Program-made: the position numbers and the translations under genes | In this document: one piece after another, positions 11,376 through 25,755 of the stretch | How positions within the stretch are numbered: the first letter of the stretch is position 1 | Layout: each line of letters opens with the position of its first letter | Assembly: GCF_011045215.1 (NCBI RefSeq) | Contig: NZ_CP049201.1 | Strand: one strand, 5' to 3' | Length of the DNA: 64,000 nucleotides | DNA from: Escherichia coli | Lineage (GTDB): Bacteria; Pseudomonadota; Gammaproteobacteria; Enterobacterales; Enterobacteriaceae | Notes under the pieces: generated by a model | What the model was told of the DNA's origin: nothing | The model's input: only the letters and a program-made list of their open reading frames with translations | The model's database searches: none

Positions 11376-12368
11376 TTGGCTACAATGAAAGATGTTGCCC
11401 GCCTGGCGGGCGTTTCTACCTCAACAGTTTCTCACGTTATCAATAAAGATCGCTTCGTCAGTGAAGCGATTACCGCCAAAGTTGAAGCGGCGATTAAAGA
11501 ACTCAATTACGCGCCATCAGCTCTGGCGCGTAGCCTCAAACTCAATCAAACACATACCATTGGCATGTTGATCACTGCCAGTACTAATCCTTTCTATTCA
11601 GAACTGGTGCGTGGCGTTGAACGCAGCTGCTTCGAACGCGGTTATAGTCTCGTCCTTTGCAATACCGAAGGCGATGAACAGCGGATGAATCGCAATCTGG
11701 AAACGCTGATGCAAAAACGCGTTGATGGCTTGCTGTTACTGTGCACCGAAACGCATCAGCCTTCGCGTGAAATCATGCAACGTTATCCGACAGTACCTAC
11801 TGTGATGATGGACTGGGCTCCGTTCGATGGCGACAGCGATCTTATTCAGGATAACTCGTTGCTGGGCGGAGACTTAGCAACGCAATATCTGATCGATAAA
11901 GGTCATACCCGTATCGCCTGTATTACCGGCCCGCTGGATAAAACTCCGGCGCGCCTGCGGTTGGAAGGTTATCGGGCGGCGATGAAACGTGCGGGTCTCA
12001 ACATTCCTGATGGCTATGAAGTCACTGGTGATTTTGAATTTAACGGCGGGTTTGACGCTATGCGCCAACTGCTATCACATCCGCTGCGTCCTCAGGCCGT
12101 CTTTACCGGAAATGACGCTATGGCTGTTGGCGTTTACCAGGCGTTATATCAGGCAGAGTTACAGGTTCCGCAGGATATCGCGGTGATTGGCTATGACGAT
12201 ATCGAACTGGCAAGCTTTATGACGCCACCATTAACCACGATCCATCAACCAAAAGATGAACTGGGGGAGCTGGCGATTGATGTACTCATCCATCGGATAA
12301 CCCAGCCGACCCTTCAGCAACAACGATTACAACTTACTCCGATTCTGATGGAACGTGGTTCGGCTTAG
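11376..12368 (+). CDS. rbsR: ribose operon repressor (LacI family)
   Basis: 330-aa [33 protein letters not shown]... Confidence 0.95.
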
Positions 12369-21597: not shown

Positions 21598-22956
21598 TTA
21601 TGTCAGTAGTTTTTGCAGATGGATGAGCAAACGGTCAATCGCACGATAGCTAACTGCCTCCTGCAAATGCTGACGTGTGATAATGTCAGACTGATCAATA
21701 TCAGCAATGGTTCGTGCAACTTTCAATAACCGCTGCCAGGCACGAATCGATAACCCCAGATGGATCAGCGTTTCTTCCAGCCACTGCGCATCTTCGCTCT
21801 CAAGCTTGCAGAATTTGCGTATTTCCGGACTATCCAGCCAGGCATTCAGTTTATTCTGCCGCTTAAATTGGCGCTCTCTGGCGGCCATTACGCGTTGTTT
21901 AACGGTGGCGCTGCTTTCTCCCGGCACTACCGTTTTACTCAAAATGCCGGGGGGTGGTAATGGGATCTCCAGTGAGAGATCGAAGCGGTCGAGAAAGGGC
22001 CCCGAGAGCCGGTTGAGATAACGTAATGTCTGTTCTGGCGTGCAGCGGTTATGGTTTCCCTGATAATGTCCGGTAGGGCTGGGATTCATCGCCGCAACAA
22101 GCTGGAAACGGGCTGGATAGGTTATTTTTGCTCGTGTGCGTGAAAGATGGATCTGCCCGGATTCAATCGGCTCTCGCAAAGCATCCAGTGTACGCCGTTC
22201 AAATTCAGGTAGCTCATCAAGAAAAAGCACGCCGTTATGCGCCAACGAAATTTCACCAGGCCCTGGAATTGCACCACCGCCCACCATCGCAGTTAACGAC
22301 GCACTGTGATGCGGTGAGCGGAACGGGCGCTGCCGCCATTGTTTTTGTACTGATTCAGCATTTACCAGACTTAATATCGCAGCGCTCTCCAGTGCCTCTT
22401 CATTGCTTAAATCTGGCAAAAGACCATTAATACGGCTGGCGAGCATTGTTTTACCTGTTCCCGGCGGTCCAATCAGTAAAAGGTTGTGCCCACCAGCGGC
22501 GGTAATTTCCAGTCCTCGCTTTCCTTGCTCCTGACCGACAACATCACTGAGATCATGTTGTAGCGCCCGGGATACTGCATCAGTTGGTTTCGGGCGTTCG
22601 AGAGTGTGCTTACCTTCCAGAAACGCACAGACAGCCTGCAGATGATCGGCTATCAAGCATCCTTCTCCGTTAATTAGCCCCACTTCATCTTCGTTATCTT
22701 TCGCGACGATAATTTTTCTGCCCGACTTAATAGCTTCAGTTGCACTGGAGATTGCGCCGGGAACGCCACGCAGAGCGCCTGTAAGCGCCAGTTCTCCGAC
22801 TAATTCATATTCATCTAACTTATTGGCTGTAAGCTGTTCTGAGGCCGCCAGCAACGCAATGGCGATAGGTAAATCATATCGTCCCCCTTCTTTTGGTAGA
22901 TCGGCTGGAGCAAGGTTAATGGTGATTTTTTTCGCCGGATATTCATATCCGCTATT
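21598..22956 (-). pseudogene. comM: comM C-terminal fragment (Mg-chelatase-like AAA+ competence protein), separated from its 5-prime end by the island
   Basis: ORF 21598..23001; ComM-like sequence from ...NSGYEYPAKKITINLAPADLPKEGGRYDLPIAIALL onward; the first codons (GTG at 23001, MIYQLDSISYANLV) are island-derived. Confidence 0.85.
22947..22956. repeat. left junction direct repeat (att core copy) ATCCGCTATT
   Basis: Identical 10-mer at 35360..35369; comM coding sequence is continuous across the two copies if the intervening DNA is removed. Confidence 0.8.
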
Positions 22957-23026
22957 TATAACTAAATTCGCATAACTTATTGAATCTAATTGATAAATCA
23001 CACTATAAATAACGTTAGAAATCGCA

Positions 23027-23084
23027 AATTAACTACACCATTAACTACACCGTTCGGTGCACTGTATGGAACAACTTGGAACAA
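23027..23084. repeat. left-arm repeat module: tandem ATTAACTACACC x2 plus GGAACAA x2 (putative integrase arm-type sites)
   Basis: 26-bp exact match AATTAACTACACCATTAACTACACCG with 35207..35232, then shared GGAACAAC(T/C)TGGAACAA. Confidence 0.6.
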
Positions 23085-23318: not shown

Positions 23319-23386
23319 ACCAAACAAAAAGCCTTACCCGTAGGCTTAATGCTTGGCTTGACTGTAGGCTTACCGTAACGCGCCGC

Positions 23387-23566
23387 TCACCGTCGCAGCC
23401 TGTCCGGTTTCCGCCACTGATACGGCCTCACATTATCATGCTGGTGGCGTTCCTGTTGCAGCACAACGGAAACAGGCGCTGAACACCTGTTAATTTTGCT
23501 TGCTGGTTGTTTGATTCCGGCAATGCTGCGGATCATCTTCAGCAAATCGGCTTCGGTGATGGTCAT
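23387..23566 (-). CDS. small hypothetical protein, 59 aa (below the ORF-track threshold)
   Basis: Hand translation MTITEADLLKMIRSIAGIKQPASKINRCSAPVSVVLQQERHQHDNVRPYQWRKPDRLRR with AAGGTG-like SD upstream of the ATG. Confidence 0.35.
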   Translation of the reverse strand: MTITEADLLKMIRSIAGIKQPASKINRCSAPVSVVLQQERHQHDNVRPYQWRKPDRLRR

Positions 23567-23598
23567 GGTTTACACCTTAGGAAATCTTAGGGGGCTGG

Positions 23599-23858
23599 TT
23601 GACACTTTCCGGCTTAAGACCTTAACAAACCTTAACATCGCAGGTTGACACACTTGACACTTTTTCGCGAAAAACCTTATCAAACCTTAGCATTTCTAAG
23701 CATGGCAACTTGACACTTTTCGCGATTTTTTTCGGCTTTTTGACGTGGTAAATCTGGCGCAAGGCCAGTAACGGCGGGGCTTACAGCGAGGTTGACACTT
23801 TTTCGCGTTCAGAGTGTAAAGTGTCAACCCGGCAAGCTGCTCAACTTGACACTTTTTG
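23599..23858. repeat. array of six direct and one inverted copies of TTGACAC(T)TTTT(T)CGCG, interleaved with AACCTTAnC repeats
   Basis: Copies start near 23599, 23645, 23654, 23710, 23792, 23846; inverted copy 23821; immediately 3-prime of the HTH gene 23862..24389. Confidence 0.6.
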
Positions 23859-23861
23859 ATG

Positions 23862-24389
23862 TCATTGATGGTCTGATTTTTCCCATTCAGCCAGGGCGTT
23901 TAGCCCGGCTTCACTCCATGATTCCAGTTCATCGGCATAATCACCTGCAACATAGCAGAGTTCGCAACGCAGCATACGAATTGCCAGCCTGGCATTACCT
24001 CGCAAATTGTATTGTTCAAAGTAATGCTGCCCGTCGCAATCCTCAAGGCAGATAGCACCATCATCAAGAAAGTGCACTTCCCAGCCTAATTCCCCGGCTG
24101 CATCCAGCACACGCTGCTGTATGCCCTCGTCCGTTGCTGGCGCAGGAATTTTACCGTCTCTGGCCTTAACTGCTTTCCAGAACTCGCCCCACGTCATTTC
24201 CAGCGTTCTCTCTGGCCACATTTCAGAAACTGTGTCTTTTCCCTGTGCTGGTGGGCTGTTCCGCTGCTCTGTCGCTTCCACATCGATTTTTTTACCGGAC
24301 ATGACCACTTCGCCTTTCTCGATCCAGTCGTAAACTGTCTGGCGGCTTACGCCTTTGTGTTTGGCATATTCTGCCTTACTCATCAGCAT
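23862..24389 (-). CDS. island protein A: N-terminal HTH (excisionase / terminase-small-subunit-like) with C-terminal Cys pairs
   Basis: 175-aa ORF MLMSKAEYAKHKGVSRQTVYDWIEKGEVV...; C-terminal CLEDC and CELC pairs; assignment by eye only. Confidence 0.4.
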   Translation of the reverse strand: MLMSKAEYAKHKGVSRQTVYDWIEKGEVVMSGKKIDVEATEQRNSPPAQGKDTVSEMWPERTLEMTWGEFWKAVKARDGKIPAPATDEGIQQRVLDAAGELGWEVHFLDDGAICLEDCDGQHYFEQYNLRGNARLAIRMLRCELCYVAGDYADELESWSEAGLNALAEWEKSDHQ

Positions 24390-24395
24390 TATGAC

Positions 24396-25067
24396 TCACC
24401 CTTCTTTTTCCAGTTGAGCCAGCCGCCCGGATATTTCTTCCAGTTTTTCCAGGGCTGGCTTGCAGGCCGCATCAATAACGTCCCGGACCATTCCGGCAAG
24501 CTGCTCTTCTGCTGTCGGCGTTGTTACCTCCACACCCGATGGTTTCCCATCCTTATCCCATACGCCCAACGGTACGAGTGCAACGTGATCGATAAGAAAT
24601 GGCGTACCCTCAATAAAAAAATTGTCCTCGCCCATTACATCAGGAACTTCAGCCCCACCGGACGCACCACAAAACACAACCGACGGACTGGTGGATACCT
24701 CCCCCCGTGCTTTCTGGATGTAATCGATGATTTCCTGCCCGTAAATCCGGCATACGCCCCACACCTCGTCACCGCGAATATACGGCAACATGACGGTGCC
24801 AATAATGCGCGACCGTTCGCCCACGTCTTCAAGGGTTTTGCTTTCGGGATGGTCGATAATGACGGGTACTCCGGCGCAACGTTCCAGGAACTGCGGATTG
24901 AGATAAGTTTGCGGTGAACGCCAGACAAATTCTTTTTCTTCGGCGCGGTAGGCCATTCCGGTTCCTGTGATACGCAGGTTAACCAGCCACATGTTGGAAA
25001 ACTGATAAGGCGACGGTAGCTGTCCGTCCCGAATCTGCTTCGCCGCCTCAATTTCTGTTAAAAGCAT
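24396..25067 (-). CDS. island protein B, hypothetical (223 aa)
   Basis: Protein-like ORF MLLTEIEAAKQIRDGQLPSPYQF..., same strand and operon as A and C; no family recognised. Confidence 0.45.
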   Translation of the reverse strand: MLLTEIEAAKQIRDGQLPSPYQFSNMWLVNLRITGTGMAYRAEEKEFVWRSPQTYLNPQFLERCAGVPVIIDHPESKTLEDVGERSRIIGTVMLPYIRGDEVWGVCRIYGQEIIDYIQKARGEVSTSPSVVFCGASGGAEVPDVMGEDNFFIEGTPFLIDHVALVPLGVWDKDGKPSGVEVTTPTAEEQLAGMVRDVIDAACKPALEKLEEISGRLAQLEKEG

Positions 25068-25131
25068 AATGTTATCCGGTTATAAGCAATAAGCCCCGCC
25101 AAATCCGGCAGGGCTGAAATCAGCACGTTTT

Positions 25132-25716
25132 TCATGCCCCCGCGAGGCTTGCAACGTTAATTTTAACCAGGCGACGGGGAGGGATTTTGAAAGCACTAAG
25201 CCAGTTATTCGGATCTCCCTGATATTCAGTAATCCGCCGTCCGGCTTCATCCATTCTTACGGTTTTACGCAAATAGCCCGGCGTGTTTTCCACGGCCCAC
25301 TGAGCACTTTCCTGAGCAGCCTTGTAAATCTGATCTTCCAGCACCGCCAGCGTTGCAGAATCTGAAACGGAACGAATATCCACATCACTGAATTTTTTAG
25401 CCAGCTTCTGTGCACCAATTAATGCACGCTTGCGGTAATCCATCGACTTTTCACCAGCAAACGGGGCCGGAGCGCGACGGCCCATATTGCTGTATGCGGA
25501 ATCCGCTTTAGCCTGGGCTTCTGCCAGTGAGGATTCATCTTCGACTGACGCGACGATGTTTTGATTAGCGTTATCCTCGTCCGCTTTTGTGAAATCCTGC
25601 GCGGGGATCGCATTCAGCATTTCGATAATCTCCTGCGGAGTGCTGCCCTGCGACTCTGACAGAGCGTTAACCACCTCCATCAGTTTTAATCGCAAATCTT
25701 CTTTGCTTGCTGGCAT
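25132..25716 (-). CDS. island protein C, hypothetical (about 194 aa)
   Basis: ORF 25132..25725; start placed at ATG 25716 (MPASKEDLRLKLMEVVNAL...) preceded by GAGGTGG. Confidence 0.45.
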   Translation of the reverse strand: MPASKEDLRLKLMEVVNALSESQGSTPQEIIEMLNAIPAQDFTKADEDNANQNIVASVEDESSLAEAQAKADSAYSNMGRRAPAPFAGEKSMDYRKRALIGAQKLAKKFSDVDIRSVSDSATLAVLEDQIYKAAQESAQWAVENTPGYLRKTVRMDEAGRRITEYQGDPNNWLSAFKIPPRRLVKINVASLAGA

Positions 25717-25755
25717 TGTTACCACCTCTCTTTTTTCACCAAAAAATCACGACCA

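What the first reader, a model, noticed from the sequence alone, without database searches (positions are those of the whole stretch)
23599..23858. Seven-copy TTGACACTTTTTCGCG array next to the HTH gene
A 15 to 17-bp motif containing a perfect TTGACA hexamer recurs six times directly and once inverted across 260 bp, interleaved with AACCTTAnC repeats. It lies immediately 3-prime of gene A, whose N-terminus resembles the HTH of excisionase or small-terminase proteins. Small terminases often bind repeated sites beside their own gene, so this could be the island packaging site. It could equally be a cluster of promoters or a sigma-factor decoy.
Basis: partly seen in the sequence, partly recalled or inferred. 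Interest (0 to 1): 0.65.

Follow-up and report, generated by a model that had tools for sequence, protein, structure and literature searches.

The report
Satellite island's protein-binding repeat array
A real, evolutionarily conserved cluster of short DNA repeats sits beside a small DNA-binding gene at the end of a phage-parasitising island, and it most likely marks the island's DNA for packaging into stolen phage particles, using a module different from the one already described.

Summary
The array is real. The exact 10-mer TTGACACTTT occurs six times in 23599-23855 and nowhere else in the 64 kb, where 0.11 copies are expected. A TTGACAC half-copy and a degenerate copy extend it to 23567-23858.

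It lies in a 12.4-kb EcCICFT073-type PICI satellite inserted in comM. It follows gene A (23862-24389), which has a TerS/Xis/Rpp-like winged-helix N-terminus and a C-terminal domain with no detectable relatives of known function.

The core AAAGTGTMAA recurs directly downstream of gene A homologues in Klebsiella, Pantoea, Serratia and Enterobacter. Overall identity there is 36-64%, but the DNA-binding domain is nearly invariant. All 38 viral-database contigs with the inverted pair encode gene A.

The array stays with gene A when the replicase is swapped. Separate GGTAGAYA iterons follow the primase. No sigma-70 promoter geometry is present, and the variable motif base is the critical G of TTGACA.

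The array occupies the slot of cos2, next to rppA, in EcCICFT073. Best reading (about 0.5): a packaging-recognition site bound by gene A. This would be a new variant of the Rpp/cos or TerS/pac theme, and it is unproven. An operator array for a Cox-like regulator is the main rival.

The parts
23862..24389 (-). Gene A, 175 aa. Residues 1-41 form a winged helix-turn-helix that is nearly invariant in the family. Residues 60-175 form a confidently predicted alpha/beta domain with no relatives of known structure or function.
23844..23855 (+). Site 1 (ACTTGACACTTT), counted from gene A. It ends 6 bp before the gene A stop codon.
   Evidence: It is at the same position (+8 from the stop) in E. coli and Pantoea relatives.
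23830..23837 (.). One copy of an 8-bp unit (GCTTGCCR in gene orientation). The unit is present in 1 to 7 tandem copies in related E. coli islands.
   Evidence: The distance from site 1 to site 2 takes the values 27, 35, 43, 51, 59 and 75 bp among relatives.
23818..23829 (-). Site 2, the inverted copy (AAAGTGTCAACC as read on the + strand).
   Evidence: It forms a perfect 12-bp inverted pair with site 3, with 16 bp between the arms.
23790..23801 (+). Site 3 (GGTTGACACTTT).
   Evidence: The inverted pair is conserved in Serratia, Pantoea and Klebsiella and in 38 IMG/VR contigs.
23758..23789 (.). Unique conserved box next to site 3. In gene orientation it reads TCGCTGTAAGCCCCGCCGTTACTGGCCTTGCG. 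It is a candidate cleavage or nucleation point in the spacer between the two site clusters.
   Evidence: The consensus AAAGTGTAAACCnCGCTGnAAGCCnnGCCATTACTGGCTTTGC is shared with Enterobacter and partly with Pantoea and Serratia. Its function is inferred only.
23708..23719 (+). Site 4 (ACTTGACACTTT).
23643..23663 (+). Site 5 (TTGACACTTT at 23654) with an overlapping half-copy GGTTGACAC (TTGACAC at 23645).
23661..23674 (.). Palindrome TTTTTCGCGAAAAA, a T-tract/A-tract element between site 5 and the next TAAG pair.
   Evidence: The equivalent TTTTTTGCGCAAAAA is found in the Enterobacter arrays.
23597..23608 (+). Site 6 (GGTTGACACTTT).
23567..23578 (+). Degenerate site 7 (GGTTTACACCTT), overlapping the ribosome-binding site and start codon of ORF59.
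23575..23591 (.). Second repeat type, pair 3: CCTAAGATTT|CCTAAGG in gene orientation.
23613..23636 (.). Second repeat type, triple: GTTAAGGTTT|GTTAAGGTCT|TAAG in gene orientation.
23675..23701 (.). Second repeat type: GCTTAGAAAT|GCTAAGGTTT|GATAAGG in gene orientation.
   Evidence: The same kind of 10-bp-period pairs occurs in Enterobacter and Serratia marcescens arrays.
23387..23566 (-). ORF59, a conserved small gene that follows the array. It is a homologue of the 93-aa ORF that follows cos2 in EcCICFT073 (shared C-terminus Y-x-W-[RK]-K-P-[DE]-R-L-R-R).
23329..23347 (-). Terminator-like hairpin plus T run, marking the end of the gene A - array - ORF59 transcription unit.

Best explanation
The array is the cis-acting recognition site of the gene A protein. 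Together they form the packaging-specificity module of an EcCICFT073-type phage satellite (PICI).

Proposed mechanism. The nearly invariant N-terminal winged helix of gene A binds the 10-12-bp core rsTTKACACTTT. Several protomers occupy two clusters of sites. The proximal cluster has three sites in + - + orientation (23790-23855). The distal cluster has three to four direct sites (23597-23719), each preceded by a TAAG pair and a T/A-tract element. The two clusters flank a roughly 70-bp spacer that carries a conserved unique box (23758-23789). The resulting nucleoprotein complex, through the fast-evolving C-terminal domain of gene A, recruits the helper phage's terminase (TerL, with or without TerS). 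The terminase cuts in or near the spacer and starts encapsidation of satellite concatemers, bypassing the helper's own packaging signal.

What is shown: the array exists; it is conserved; it is strictly linked to gene A; it is independent of the replicase; it sits in the cos2/rpp position.

What is inferred: that gene A binds it; that the process served is packaging; that the cut lies in the spacer; that the C-terminal domain contacts the helper terminase.
For: 1. Non-chance clustering: 6 exact 10-mers in 257 bp against 0.11 expected in 64 kb.

2. Cross-genus conservation of the core while the flanks diverge. This holds in Klebsiella, Pantoea, Serratia and Enterobacter loci, always starting at or near the gene A stop codon. 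The 59-site logo shows invariant AAAGTGT-AA.

3. Strict linkage. All 38 IMG/VR contigs with the inverted pair encode gene A immediately upstream. The DNA-binding domain (residues 1-41) is nearly invariant while the rest of the protein falls to about 20-25% identity.

5. Synteny with EcCICFT073. That island runs PerC, capsid-related genes, cos1, rppA, cos2, ORF93, island end. The window runs PerC, DUF2213 capsid-related genes, gene A, array, ORF59 (a homologue of ORF93), island end. Both cos sites were shown functional, and Rpp-dependent recognition maps to cosB of cos1 (PMC6092414, PMC6739421).

6. The island has no lambda cosN or cosQ and no terS. Gene A plus the array is therefore its only candidate packaging determinant.

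7. Klebsiella and Serratia relatives are embedded in the capsid gene of a lambdoid prophage with a PBSX-type TerL. That prophage's terS region lacks the motif, so the signal is satellite-specific. The same absence holds for E. coli phage Rac-SA53.

8. In Klebsiella a DUF5681 gene follows the array directly. Its relatives sit immediately upstream of terL in phages.

9. No gene A homologue was found in 50,697 phage records or 72,556 plasmid records.
Against: - There is no direct evidence of binding, cleavage or packaging.
- The array is downstream of gene A. Lambda cos/Nu1 and cos1/rppA have the site upstream of the gene.
- The C-terminal domain does not look like a TerS oligomerisation core or the helical Rpp dimerisation domain.
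- Distant homologues that have only the C-terminal domain lie next to GerE/LuxR-type regulators in non-satellite contexts. This hints at a regulatory protein-protein role.
- The order of clusters differs between E. coli and Enterobacter, and an 8-bp VNTR changes the phasing between site 1 and site 2. The geometry is therefore looser than lambda cosN-cosB spacing.
- No contig terminus in viral databases maps to the spacer.
- The resemblance of the spacer box to lambda or P2 cos sequences is weak.
Confidence: 0.5

Rival explanations
1. Operator array of a Cox/Xis/BldC-like transcription regulator. Gene A oligomerises head-to-tail on the repeats. It represses, insulates or activates expression of ORF59 and the variable accessory genes downstream, or it acts as a roadblock at the end of the late operon.
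Against: No sigma-70-like promoter is found on either strand of the array for a regulator to act on. The array is kept when ORF59 is absent and the downstream genes are different. Regulators of these islands lie at the integrase end. Gene A sits in the morphogenesis/interference operon, in the rppA slot. A 300-600-bp array of 6-8 sites plus a second repeat type is large for an operator.
Confidence: 0.22
2. A cis site for another DNA transaction of the excised element. Options are a centromere-like partition site (as in pSK1 Par), an oriT-like or relaxosome site for conjugative mobilisation, or a recombination enhancer, with gene A as the accessory DNA-binding protein.
Against: No gene A homologue occurs on 72,556 plasmids. 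The island has no partition NTPase or relaxase. The array lies about 600 bp or more from the att core, and accessory genes intervene in relatives. That argues against an excision-directionality role. The arm-type repeats AATTAACTACACC... are elsewhere, at 23027 and 35207.
Confidence: 0.1
3. Replication origin: the repeats are iterons for the island's primase/replicase.
For: Iteron-like repetition. P4-type satellites can have an ori remote from the primase gene (my knowledge).
Against: A separate iteron cluster, GGTAGAYA x9 at 27842-28122, abuts the primase gene. The same iterons follow the related primase in EcCICFT073 and in L004. They are absent from islands with RepA-helicase or DUF927 replicases, and those islands still carry an almost identical TTGACAC array. 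Klebsiella relatives have P4-like ATGAACACC iterons upstream of gene A.
Confidence: 0.03
4. A cluster of sigma-70 promoters or a -35 decoy that titrates RNA polymerase.
For: Six perfect TTGACA hexamers.
Against: The scan found 0 promoter-like sites, because no -10 element lies at 16-18 nt. Conservation extends to ACACTTT, outside the hexamer, and the one variable base is the G of TTG. The hexamers point against the direction of all island genes.
Confidence: 0.02

Closest known systems
rppA with cos1/cos2 of the E. coli PICI EcCICFT073 (Fillol-Salom 2018, 2019; PMC6092414, PMC6739421)
   Same: Same island backbone: int, Icd-like, DUF4222, primase with GGTAGAYA iterons, PerC, capsid-related genes, a winged-helix gene, a small ORF59-family gene. 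The same slot is used, since cos2 lies between rppA and the ORF59 homologue. Rpp has a TerS-like winged helix next to its cis site. The signal differs from the helper's own.
   Different: There is no lambda cosQ or cosN here. Gene A aligns with RppA over only 29 helix-turn-helix columns, and its C-terminal domain is unrelated. Published analysis finds a single R3-like site and no repeats in cos1 (PMC9026076), whereas this array has 7-8 sites plus a second repeat type. The likely helpers also differ: lambdoid myoviruses with a PBSX-type TerL rather than lambda/phi80.
Lambda cosB (R3-I1-R2-R1) bound by TerS gpNu1
   Same: Several sites of about 12-16 bp for a winged-helix protein, spaced about 45-55 bp apart, with one site inverted relative to its neighbours. 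The proximal cluster here is + - +. Bendable DNA lies between sites, and the region is next to the specificity gene (PMC9026076).
   Different: The site sequence differs and there are more sites. The array lies 3' of the gene. No recognisable cosN is present. Spacing to the putative cut is not fixed, because of the VNTR and the different cluster order in Enterobacter.
SaPI TerS(S) with the SaPI pac site; bipartite pac sites of P1 and SPP1 (my knowledge; the SaPI case is cited in 10.1101/2022.09.08.507074)
   Same: A satellite-encoded specificity factor redirects the helper TerL to a satellite-specific signal. Repeat clusters flank a central region that is cut.
   Different: Gene A lacks the TerS oligomerisation architecture. 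No Ppi-like partner has been identified. Headful packaging by the helper is inferred only from its PBSX-type TerL and MuF gene.
P2 Cox boxes, lambda Xis and BldC head-to-tail arrays
   Different: Those proteins are single-domain and act at promoters or next to att cores. Gene A has an extra 115-aa domain and its array is not adjacent to att.

Membership tests
Lambda-type cos site (as EcCICFT073 cos1/cos2) | cosN GGGCGGCGACCT | tested here: not met
   No match with 2 or fewer mismatches in or near the array. The only hit in the island, at 28749, is inside the primase gene and at chance level. EcCICFT073 has exact copies at L028 11036 and 11775.
Lambda-type cos site (as EcCICFT073 cos1/cos2) | cosQ (ACGGGTCCTTTCCGG) upstream of cosN | tested here: not met
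   Only chance-level hits with 3 mismatches, none near the array.
Lambda-type cos site (as EcCICFT073 cos1/cos2) | Staggered cleavage that generates cohesive ends | not testable with these tools
   This needs sequencing of particle DNA ends. No database contig terminus maps to the spacer.
Rpp (redirecting phage packaging) proteins | Sequence homology to RppA/B/C over the whole protein | tested here: not met
   phmmer against the PDB finds no RppC. hhalign aligns only 29 helix-turn-helix columns, probability 27%.
Rpp (redirecting phage packaging) proteins | TerS-like winged helix-turn-helix DNA-binding domain | tested here: met
Rpp (redirecting phage packaging) proteins | Heterodimerisation with the helper TerS | not testable with these tools
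   No complex prediction or binding assay is available. The C-terminal fold differs from that of RppC.
Small terminase (TerS) | N-terminal DNA-binding domain, then a helical oligomerisation core, then a TerL-binding tail; gene adjacent to terL | tested here: not met
   Only the DNA-binding domain matches (phrog_57, residues 1-42). The C-terminal domain is alpha/beta with no TerS hit. The island has no terL.
PICI/P4 replication origin (iterons) | The repeats co-vary with, and lie next to, the replicase | tested here: not met
   The array is unchanged beside primase, DUF927 or RepA-helicase replicases. GGTAGAYA iterons track the primase instead.
Sigma-70 promoter | -35 and -10 hexamers 16-18 nt apart, with TTG conserved | tested here: not met
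   0 promoter-like sites. The G of TTG is the only variable core base.
Excisionase / recombination directionality factor sites | Binding sites within the att arm next to the core | tested here: not met
   The att core is near 22960 and the arm repeats are at 23027-23052. The array begins at 23567. Up to 2 kb of accessory genes intervene in relatives.
Plasmid centromere with centromere-binding protein | Occurs on plasmids or with a partition NTPase | tested here: not met
   No gene A homologue in 72,556 plasmids. No ParA/ParM-like gene in the island.
EcCICFT073-type PICI (the element that carries the array) | Integrase, Icd-like, DUF4222, primase with downstream iterons, PerC, morphogenesis/interference genes, about 11-13 kb, flanked by att repeats | tested here: met
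   The island spans about 22.96-35.35 kb inside comM.

The most novel reading that the evidence does not exclude
Gene A and its bipartite repeat array form a previously undescribed, self-contained packaging-initiation system of enterobacterial phage satellites. In this reading a winged-helix protein carries a novel alpha/beta partner-binding domain and is related to neither Rpp nor TerS beyond the helix-turn-helix. It nucleates on a multi-site array with a second, 10-bp-period TAAG repeat and captures the terminase of PBSX-type (probably headful) lambdoid helpers. This would be the Gram-negative counterpart of SaPI TerS/pac, built from different parts.
Probability: 0.35. Interest if true: 0.7.

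Novelty: new variant of a known kind. Interest (0 to 1): 0.55.

Why it matters
How Gram-negative PICIs are packaged is understood only for those that hijack lambda-like cos phages through Rpp. This module is present in 165 of 5,426 complete E. coli genomes and in Klebsiella, Serratia, Pantoea and Enterobacter. It belongs to satellites that lack lambda cos sites. In Klebsiella and Serratia these satellites sit inside the capsid gene of a different kind of helper prophage. If the array is their packaging signal, three things follow:
- It defines a second specificity system for satellite transfer, and hence for spread of the defence and virulence cargo inserted just beyond it.
- It gives a compact protein-plus-site cassette of about 0.8 kb, usable for engineered transducing particles.
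- It offers a tractable case of a conserved DNA-binding domain joined to a fast-evolving partner domain in a satellite-helper arms race.

Tried and rejected
- Lambda cosN and cosQ searches in the window gave only chance-level hits.
- Sequence search of gene A against the PDB found nothing.
- Foldseek searches of the full model against the PDB and BFVD matched only the N-terminal helix-turn-helix. The C-terminal domain stayed unassigned.
- Pfam, NCBIfam and PADLOC gave only sub-threshold helix-turn-helix or excisionase hits for gene A. ORF59 had no NCBIfam or PADLOC hit.
- DNA and protein searches of gene A and of the ORF59 family against the phage collection, and of gene A against the plasmid collection, found no match.
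- Helper-type prophage terS regions were scanned for the motif and none was found.
- Rfam gave no hit and RNA folding of the transcribed array gave z -1.8, so an RNA element is not supported.
- The promoter scan found none.
- I looked for viral-database contig ends or terminal repeats at the array as a sign of packaging termini. The ends follow gene-prediction boundaries and there are no direct terminal repeats, so this was uninformative.
- A profile search with the C-terminal domain over 1.84 billion proteins returned only 42 clusters. The distant members that have only this domain lie next to GerE regulators, which does not clarify a packaging role.
- Similarities of the spacer box to lambda cosN flanks, P2 cos and the ColE1 nic site were considered. 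They were set aside as too short to count as evidence.

Full report
**Setting**

The window is E. coli chromosome carrying hdfR, yifE, comM and ilvG. A mobile island of about 12.4 kb is inserted in the 5' part of comM. The ComM N-terminus is encoded at 35352-35561 and the rest at 21598-23001. A 26-bp arm repeat, AATTAACTACACCATTAACTACACCG, lies at both ends, at 23027 and 35207.

All island genes are on the - strand. In order they are:
- integrase (33956-35206)
- an Ant-like gene and small regulators
- DUF4222
- a D5-type primase (28148-29896)
- a ProQ/FinO-domain gene and PerC
- two genes matching the two halves of a DUF2213 head-protease/scaffold-like phage family (25132-25725 and 24396-25067)
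- gene A (23862-24389)
- the array
- ORF59 (23387-23566), followed by a terminator-like hairpin

This is the backbone of the prototype Gram-negative phage-inducible chromosomal island EcCICFT073.

**The observation**

TTGACACTTT occurs exactly six times, at 23599, 23654, 23710, 23792 and 23846 on the + strand and at 23818 inverted. There is no other copy in 64 kb even with one mismatch. About 0.11 copies are expected in the whole window.

A TTGACAC half-copy lies at 23645. A degenerate GGTTTACACCTT lies at 23567-23578.

The interleaved 'AACCTTAnC' elements are real. In gene orientation they are pairs or triples of NNTAAG(G) at a 10-bp period. In two of the three intervals of the distal half, a T/A-rich stretch (for example TTTTTCGCGAAAAA) separates the TAAG repeats from the next core site.

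**Anatomy**

Reading from gene A:
- Site 1 ends 6 bp before the gene A stop codon.
- A perfect inverted pair follows: GGTTGACACTTT, 16 bp, AAAGTGTCAACC (sites 3 and 2).
- Next comes a unique box at 23758-23789 and about 70 bp of spacer.
- Then three to four direct sites about 55 bp apart, each with TAAG repeats between them.
- Last is a degenerate site over the ORF59 start.

**Conservation**

The array is in 165 of 5,426 complete E. coli genomes.

Gene A homologues occur across Enterobacterales. I examined Klebsiella, Pantoea, Serratia and Enterobacter loci with 36-64% protein identity. In each, the DNA directly after the gene A stop carries 3-8 copies of AAAGTGT[C/A/T]AA(CC), while the surrounding sequence is not alignable. 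A Serratia marcescens relative has one-mismatch versions of the core and many TAAG-type pairs.

A logo from 59 sites shows AAAGTGT-AA invariant.

In the protein, residues 1-41 (MLMSKAEYAKHRGVSRQTVYDWIAKGEVVMSGxKIDVEATE) are nearly invariant. The C-terminal domain falls to about 20-25% identity.

A pattern for the inverted pair found 38 IMG/VR contigs, and all 38 encode gene A immediately upstream. A conserved DNA-binding domain, a conserved motif and strict adjacency make gene A the most likely binder. That binding is an inference.

**What it is not**

Not an origin. Nine GGTAGAYA iterons lie at 27842-28122, right after the primase gene. The same iterons follow the related primases of EcCICFT073 and of another island. 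They are missing from islands whose replicase is a RepA helicase or a DUF927 protein, yet those islands carry an almost identical TTGACAC array. Klebsiella relatives have P4-like ATGAACACC iterons elsewhere.

Not promoters. No hexamer has a -10 element at 16-18 nt on either strand. The only variable core base is the G of TTG.

Probably not excision sites. The array starts about 600 bp from the att core, and in relatives up to 2 kb of cargo genes lie between them.

Probably not a plasmid-type partition or transfer site. No gene A homologue was found in 72,556 plasmids.

Not a known RNA.

**What points to packaging**

2. EcCICFT073 runs capsid-related genes, cos1, rppA, cos2 (inverted), a 93-aa ORF, island end. 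The 93-aa ORF is a homologue of ORF59. The array therefore occupies the cos2 slot and gene A the rppA slot. Both cos sites are functional. Rpp, in complex with the helper TerS, recognises the PICI cosB (PMC6092414, PMC6739421).

3. The window island has no lambda cosN or cosQ and no terS.

4. In Klebsiella and Serratia the gene A satellites are inserted in the major capsid gene of a lambdoid prophage. That prophage carries TerS, a PBSX-type TerL, portal, MuF, DUF2213 and an E217-like tail. Its terS region lacks the motif. E. coli phage Rac-SA53, whose DUF2213 protein is the closest phage relative of the island's, also lacks it.

5. In Klebsiella a DUF5681 gene follows the array. Its relatives sit just upstream of terL in phages.

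6. The layout, with two clusters of sites flanking a spacer that holds a conserved box, and a + - + proximal cluster, resembles lambda cosB (R3, R2 inverted, R1; PMC9026076). It also resembles bipartite pac sites, though that comparison rests on my own knowledge.

**What weakens it**

- Nothing here shows binding, cutting or packaging.
- The array is 3' of its gene.
- The C-terminal domain (AF2 pLDDT about 96) resembles neither TerS nor Rpp and has no structural match.
- Only 42 clusters in 1.84 billion proteins contain this domain. The remote members that have only this domain lie beside GerE-type regulators.
- The cluster order differs in Enterobacter, and an 8-bp VNTR alters the phasing between site 1 and site 2.
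- The box only faintly resembles known cos sequences.

**Verdict**

The packaging reading is the best supported, at about 0.5. A Cox-like operator array is the main rival, at about 0.2. The promoter, decoy and origin readings are rejected.

The module is not a member of the Rpp, TerS or lambda-cos families by their defining features. It probably works like them, so I rate it a new variant of a known kind. My literature searches found no description of it.

Noticed in passing
window 27842-28122: Nine GGTAGAYA iterons in both orientations lie directly downstream of the primase gene. The same iterons follow the primase of EcCICFT073 (L028 7488-7706) and of L004. This is the likely island origin.
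   Followed up: yes
window 27099-27425: A second repeat family, four copies of (T)CCCCACTTTT(T) with inverted partners, lies in the 470-bp gap between the ProQ/FinO gene and the 115-aa gene. Its role is unknown.
   Followed up: no
window 23575-23701; L024 8600-9260; L026 8680-8990; L027 8700-9200: In the NNTAAG-N4-NNTAAGG pairs, the two bases before TAAG are identical within a pair but differ between pairs (GC/GC, GT/GT, CC/CC, AG/AG, GA/GA). This suggests repeated 10-bp slippage or a need for identical half-sites. The binding factor is unknown.
   Followed up: partly
window 23830-23837; L032, L033, L034, L055, L060: An 8-bp unit GCTTGCCA varies from 1 to 7 tandem copies between site 1 and the inverted pair in different E. 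coli islands.
   Followed up: partly
L028 (EcCICFT073) 11571-11790: The cosB side of cos2 contains three copies of ATGTCCGGTT, two direct and one inverted, between cosN and the rppA stop codon. Published analyses say cos1 has no repeated R sequences.
   Followed up: no
L017 5834-18666; L006, L007, L026: Klebsiella and Serratia gene A satellites are embedded in the major capsid gene (PF09950) of a lambdoid prophage and are co-oriented with it. In L017 a second integrase-bearing element lies in tandem. This is a helper-embedded PICI arrangement.
   Followed up: partly
window 24396-25725: The DUF2213 (Pa193_gp24) head-protease/scaffold-like gene is split into two ORFs of 197 and 223 aa. These match the C-terminal and central parts of the 545-position PHROG 6216. 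They lie in swapped order relative to a single phage gene such as the 430-aa one of Rac-SA53.
   Followed up: partly
L068 7001-7411; L070 925-1365: Distant homologues of the gene A C-terminal domain that lack the helix-turn-helix lie next to GerE/LuxR-type regulators, in L068 beside capsule genes.
   Followed up: partly
L005 9000-9150: A decayed island that has lost gene A still keeps three TTGACAC copies, the distal part of the array.
   Followed up: no
L001 8503-9695; L002 6493-8481; L003 6703-8659; L024 6507-7877: The region just beyond the array and ORF59 is a cargo hotspot. It holds DUF3800 plus a hypothetical gene, an RNA-binding-domain protein, or AAA ATPase plus DUF4435. In L024 a KAP NTPase gene lies just upstream of gene A. 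These look like defence-type genes.
   Followed up: no
window 22960-23052 and 35207-35370: The island is inserted in comM (yifB). The arm-type repeat AATTAACTACACCATTAACTACACCG is present at both ends, and the end sequence is homologous to that of EcCICFT073.
   Followed up: partly
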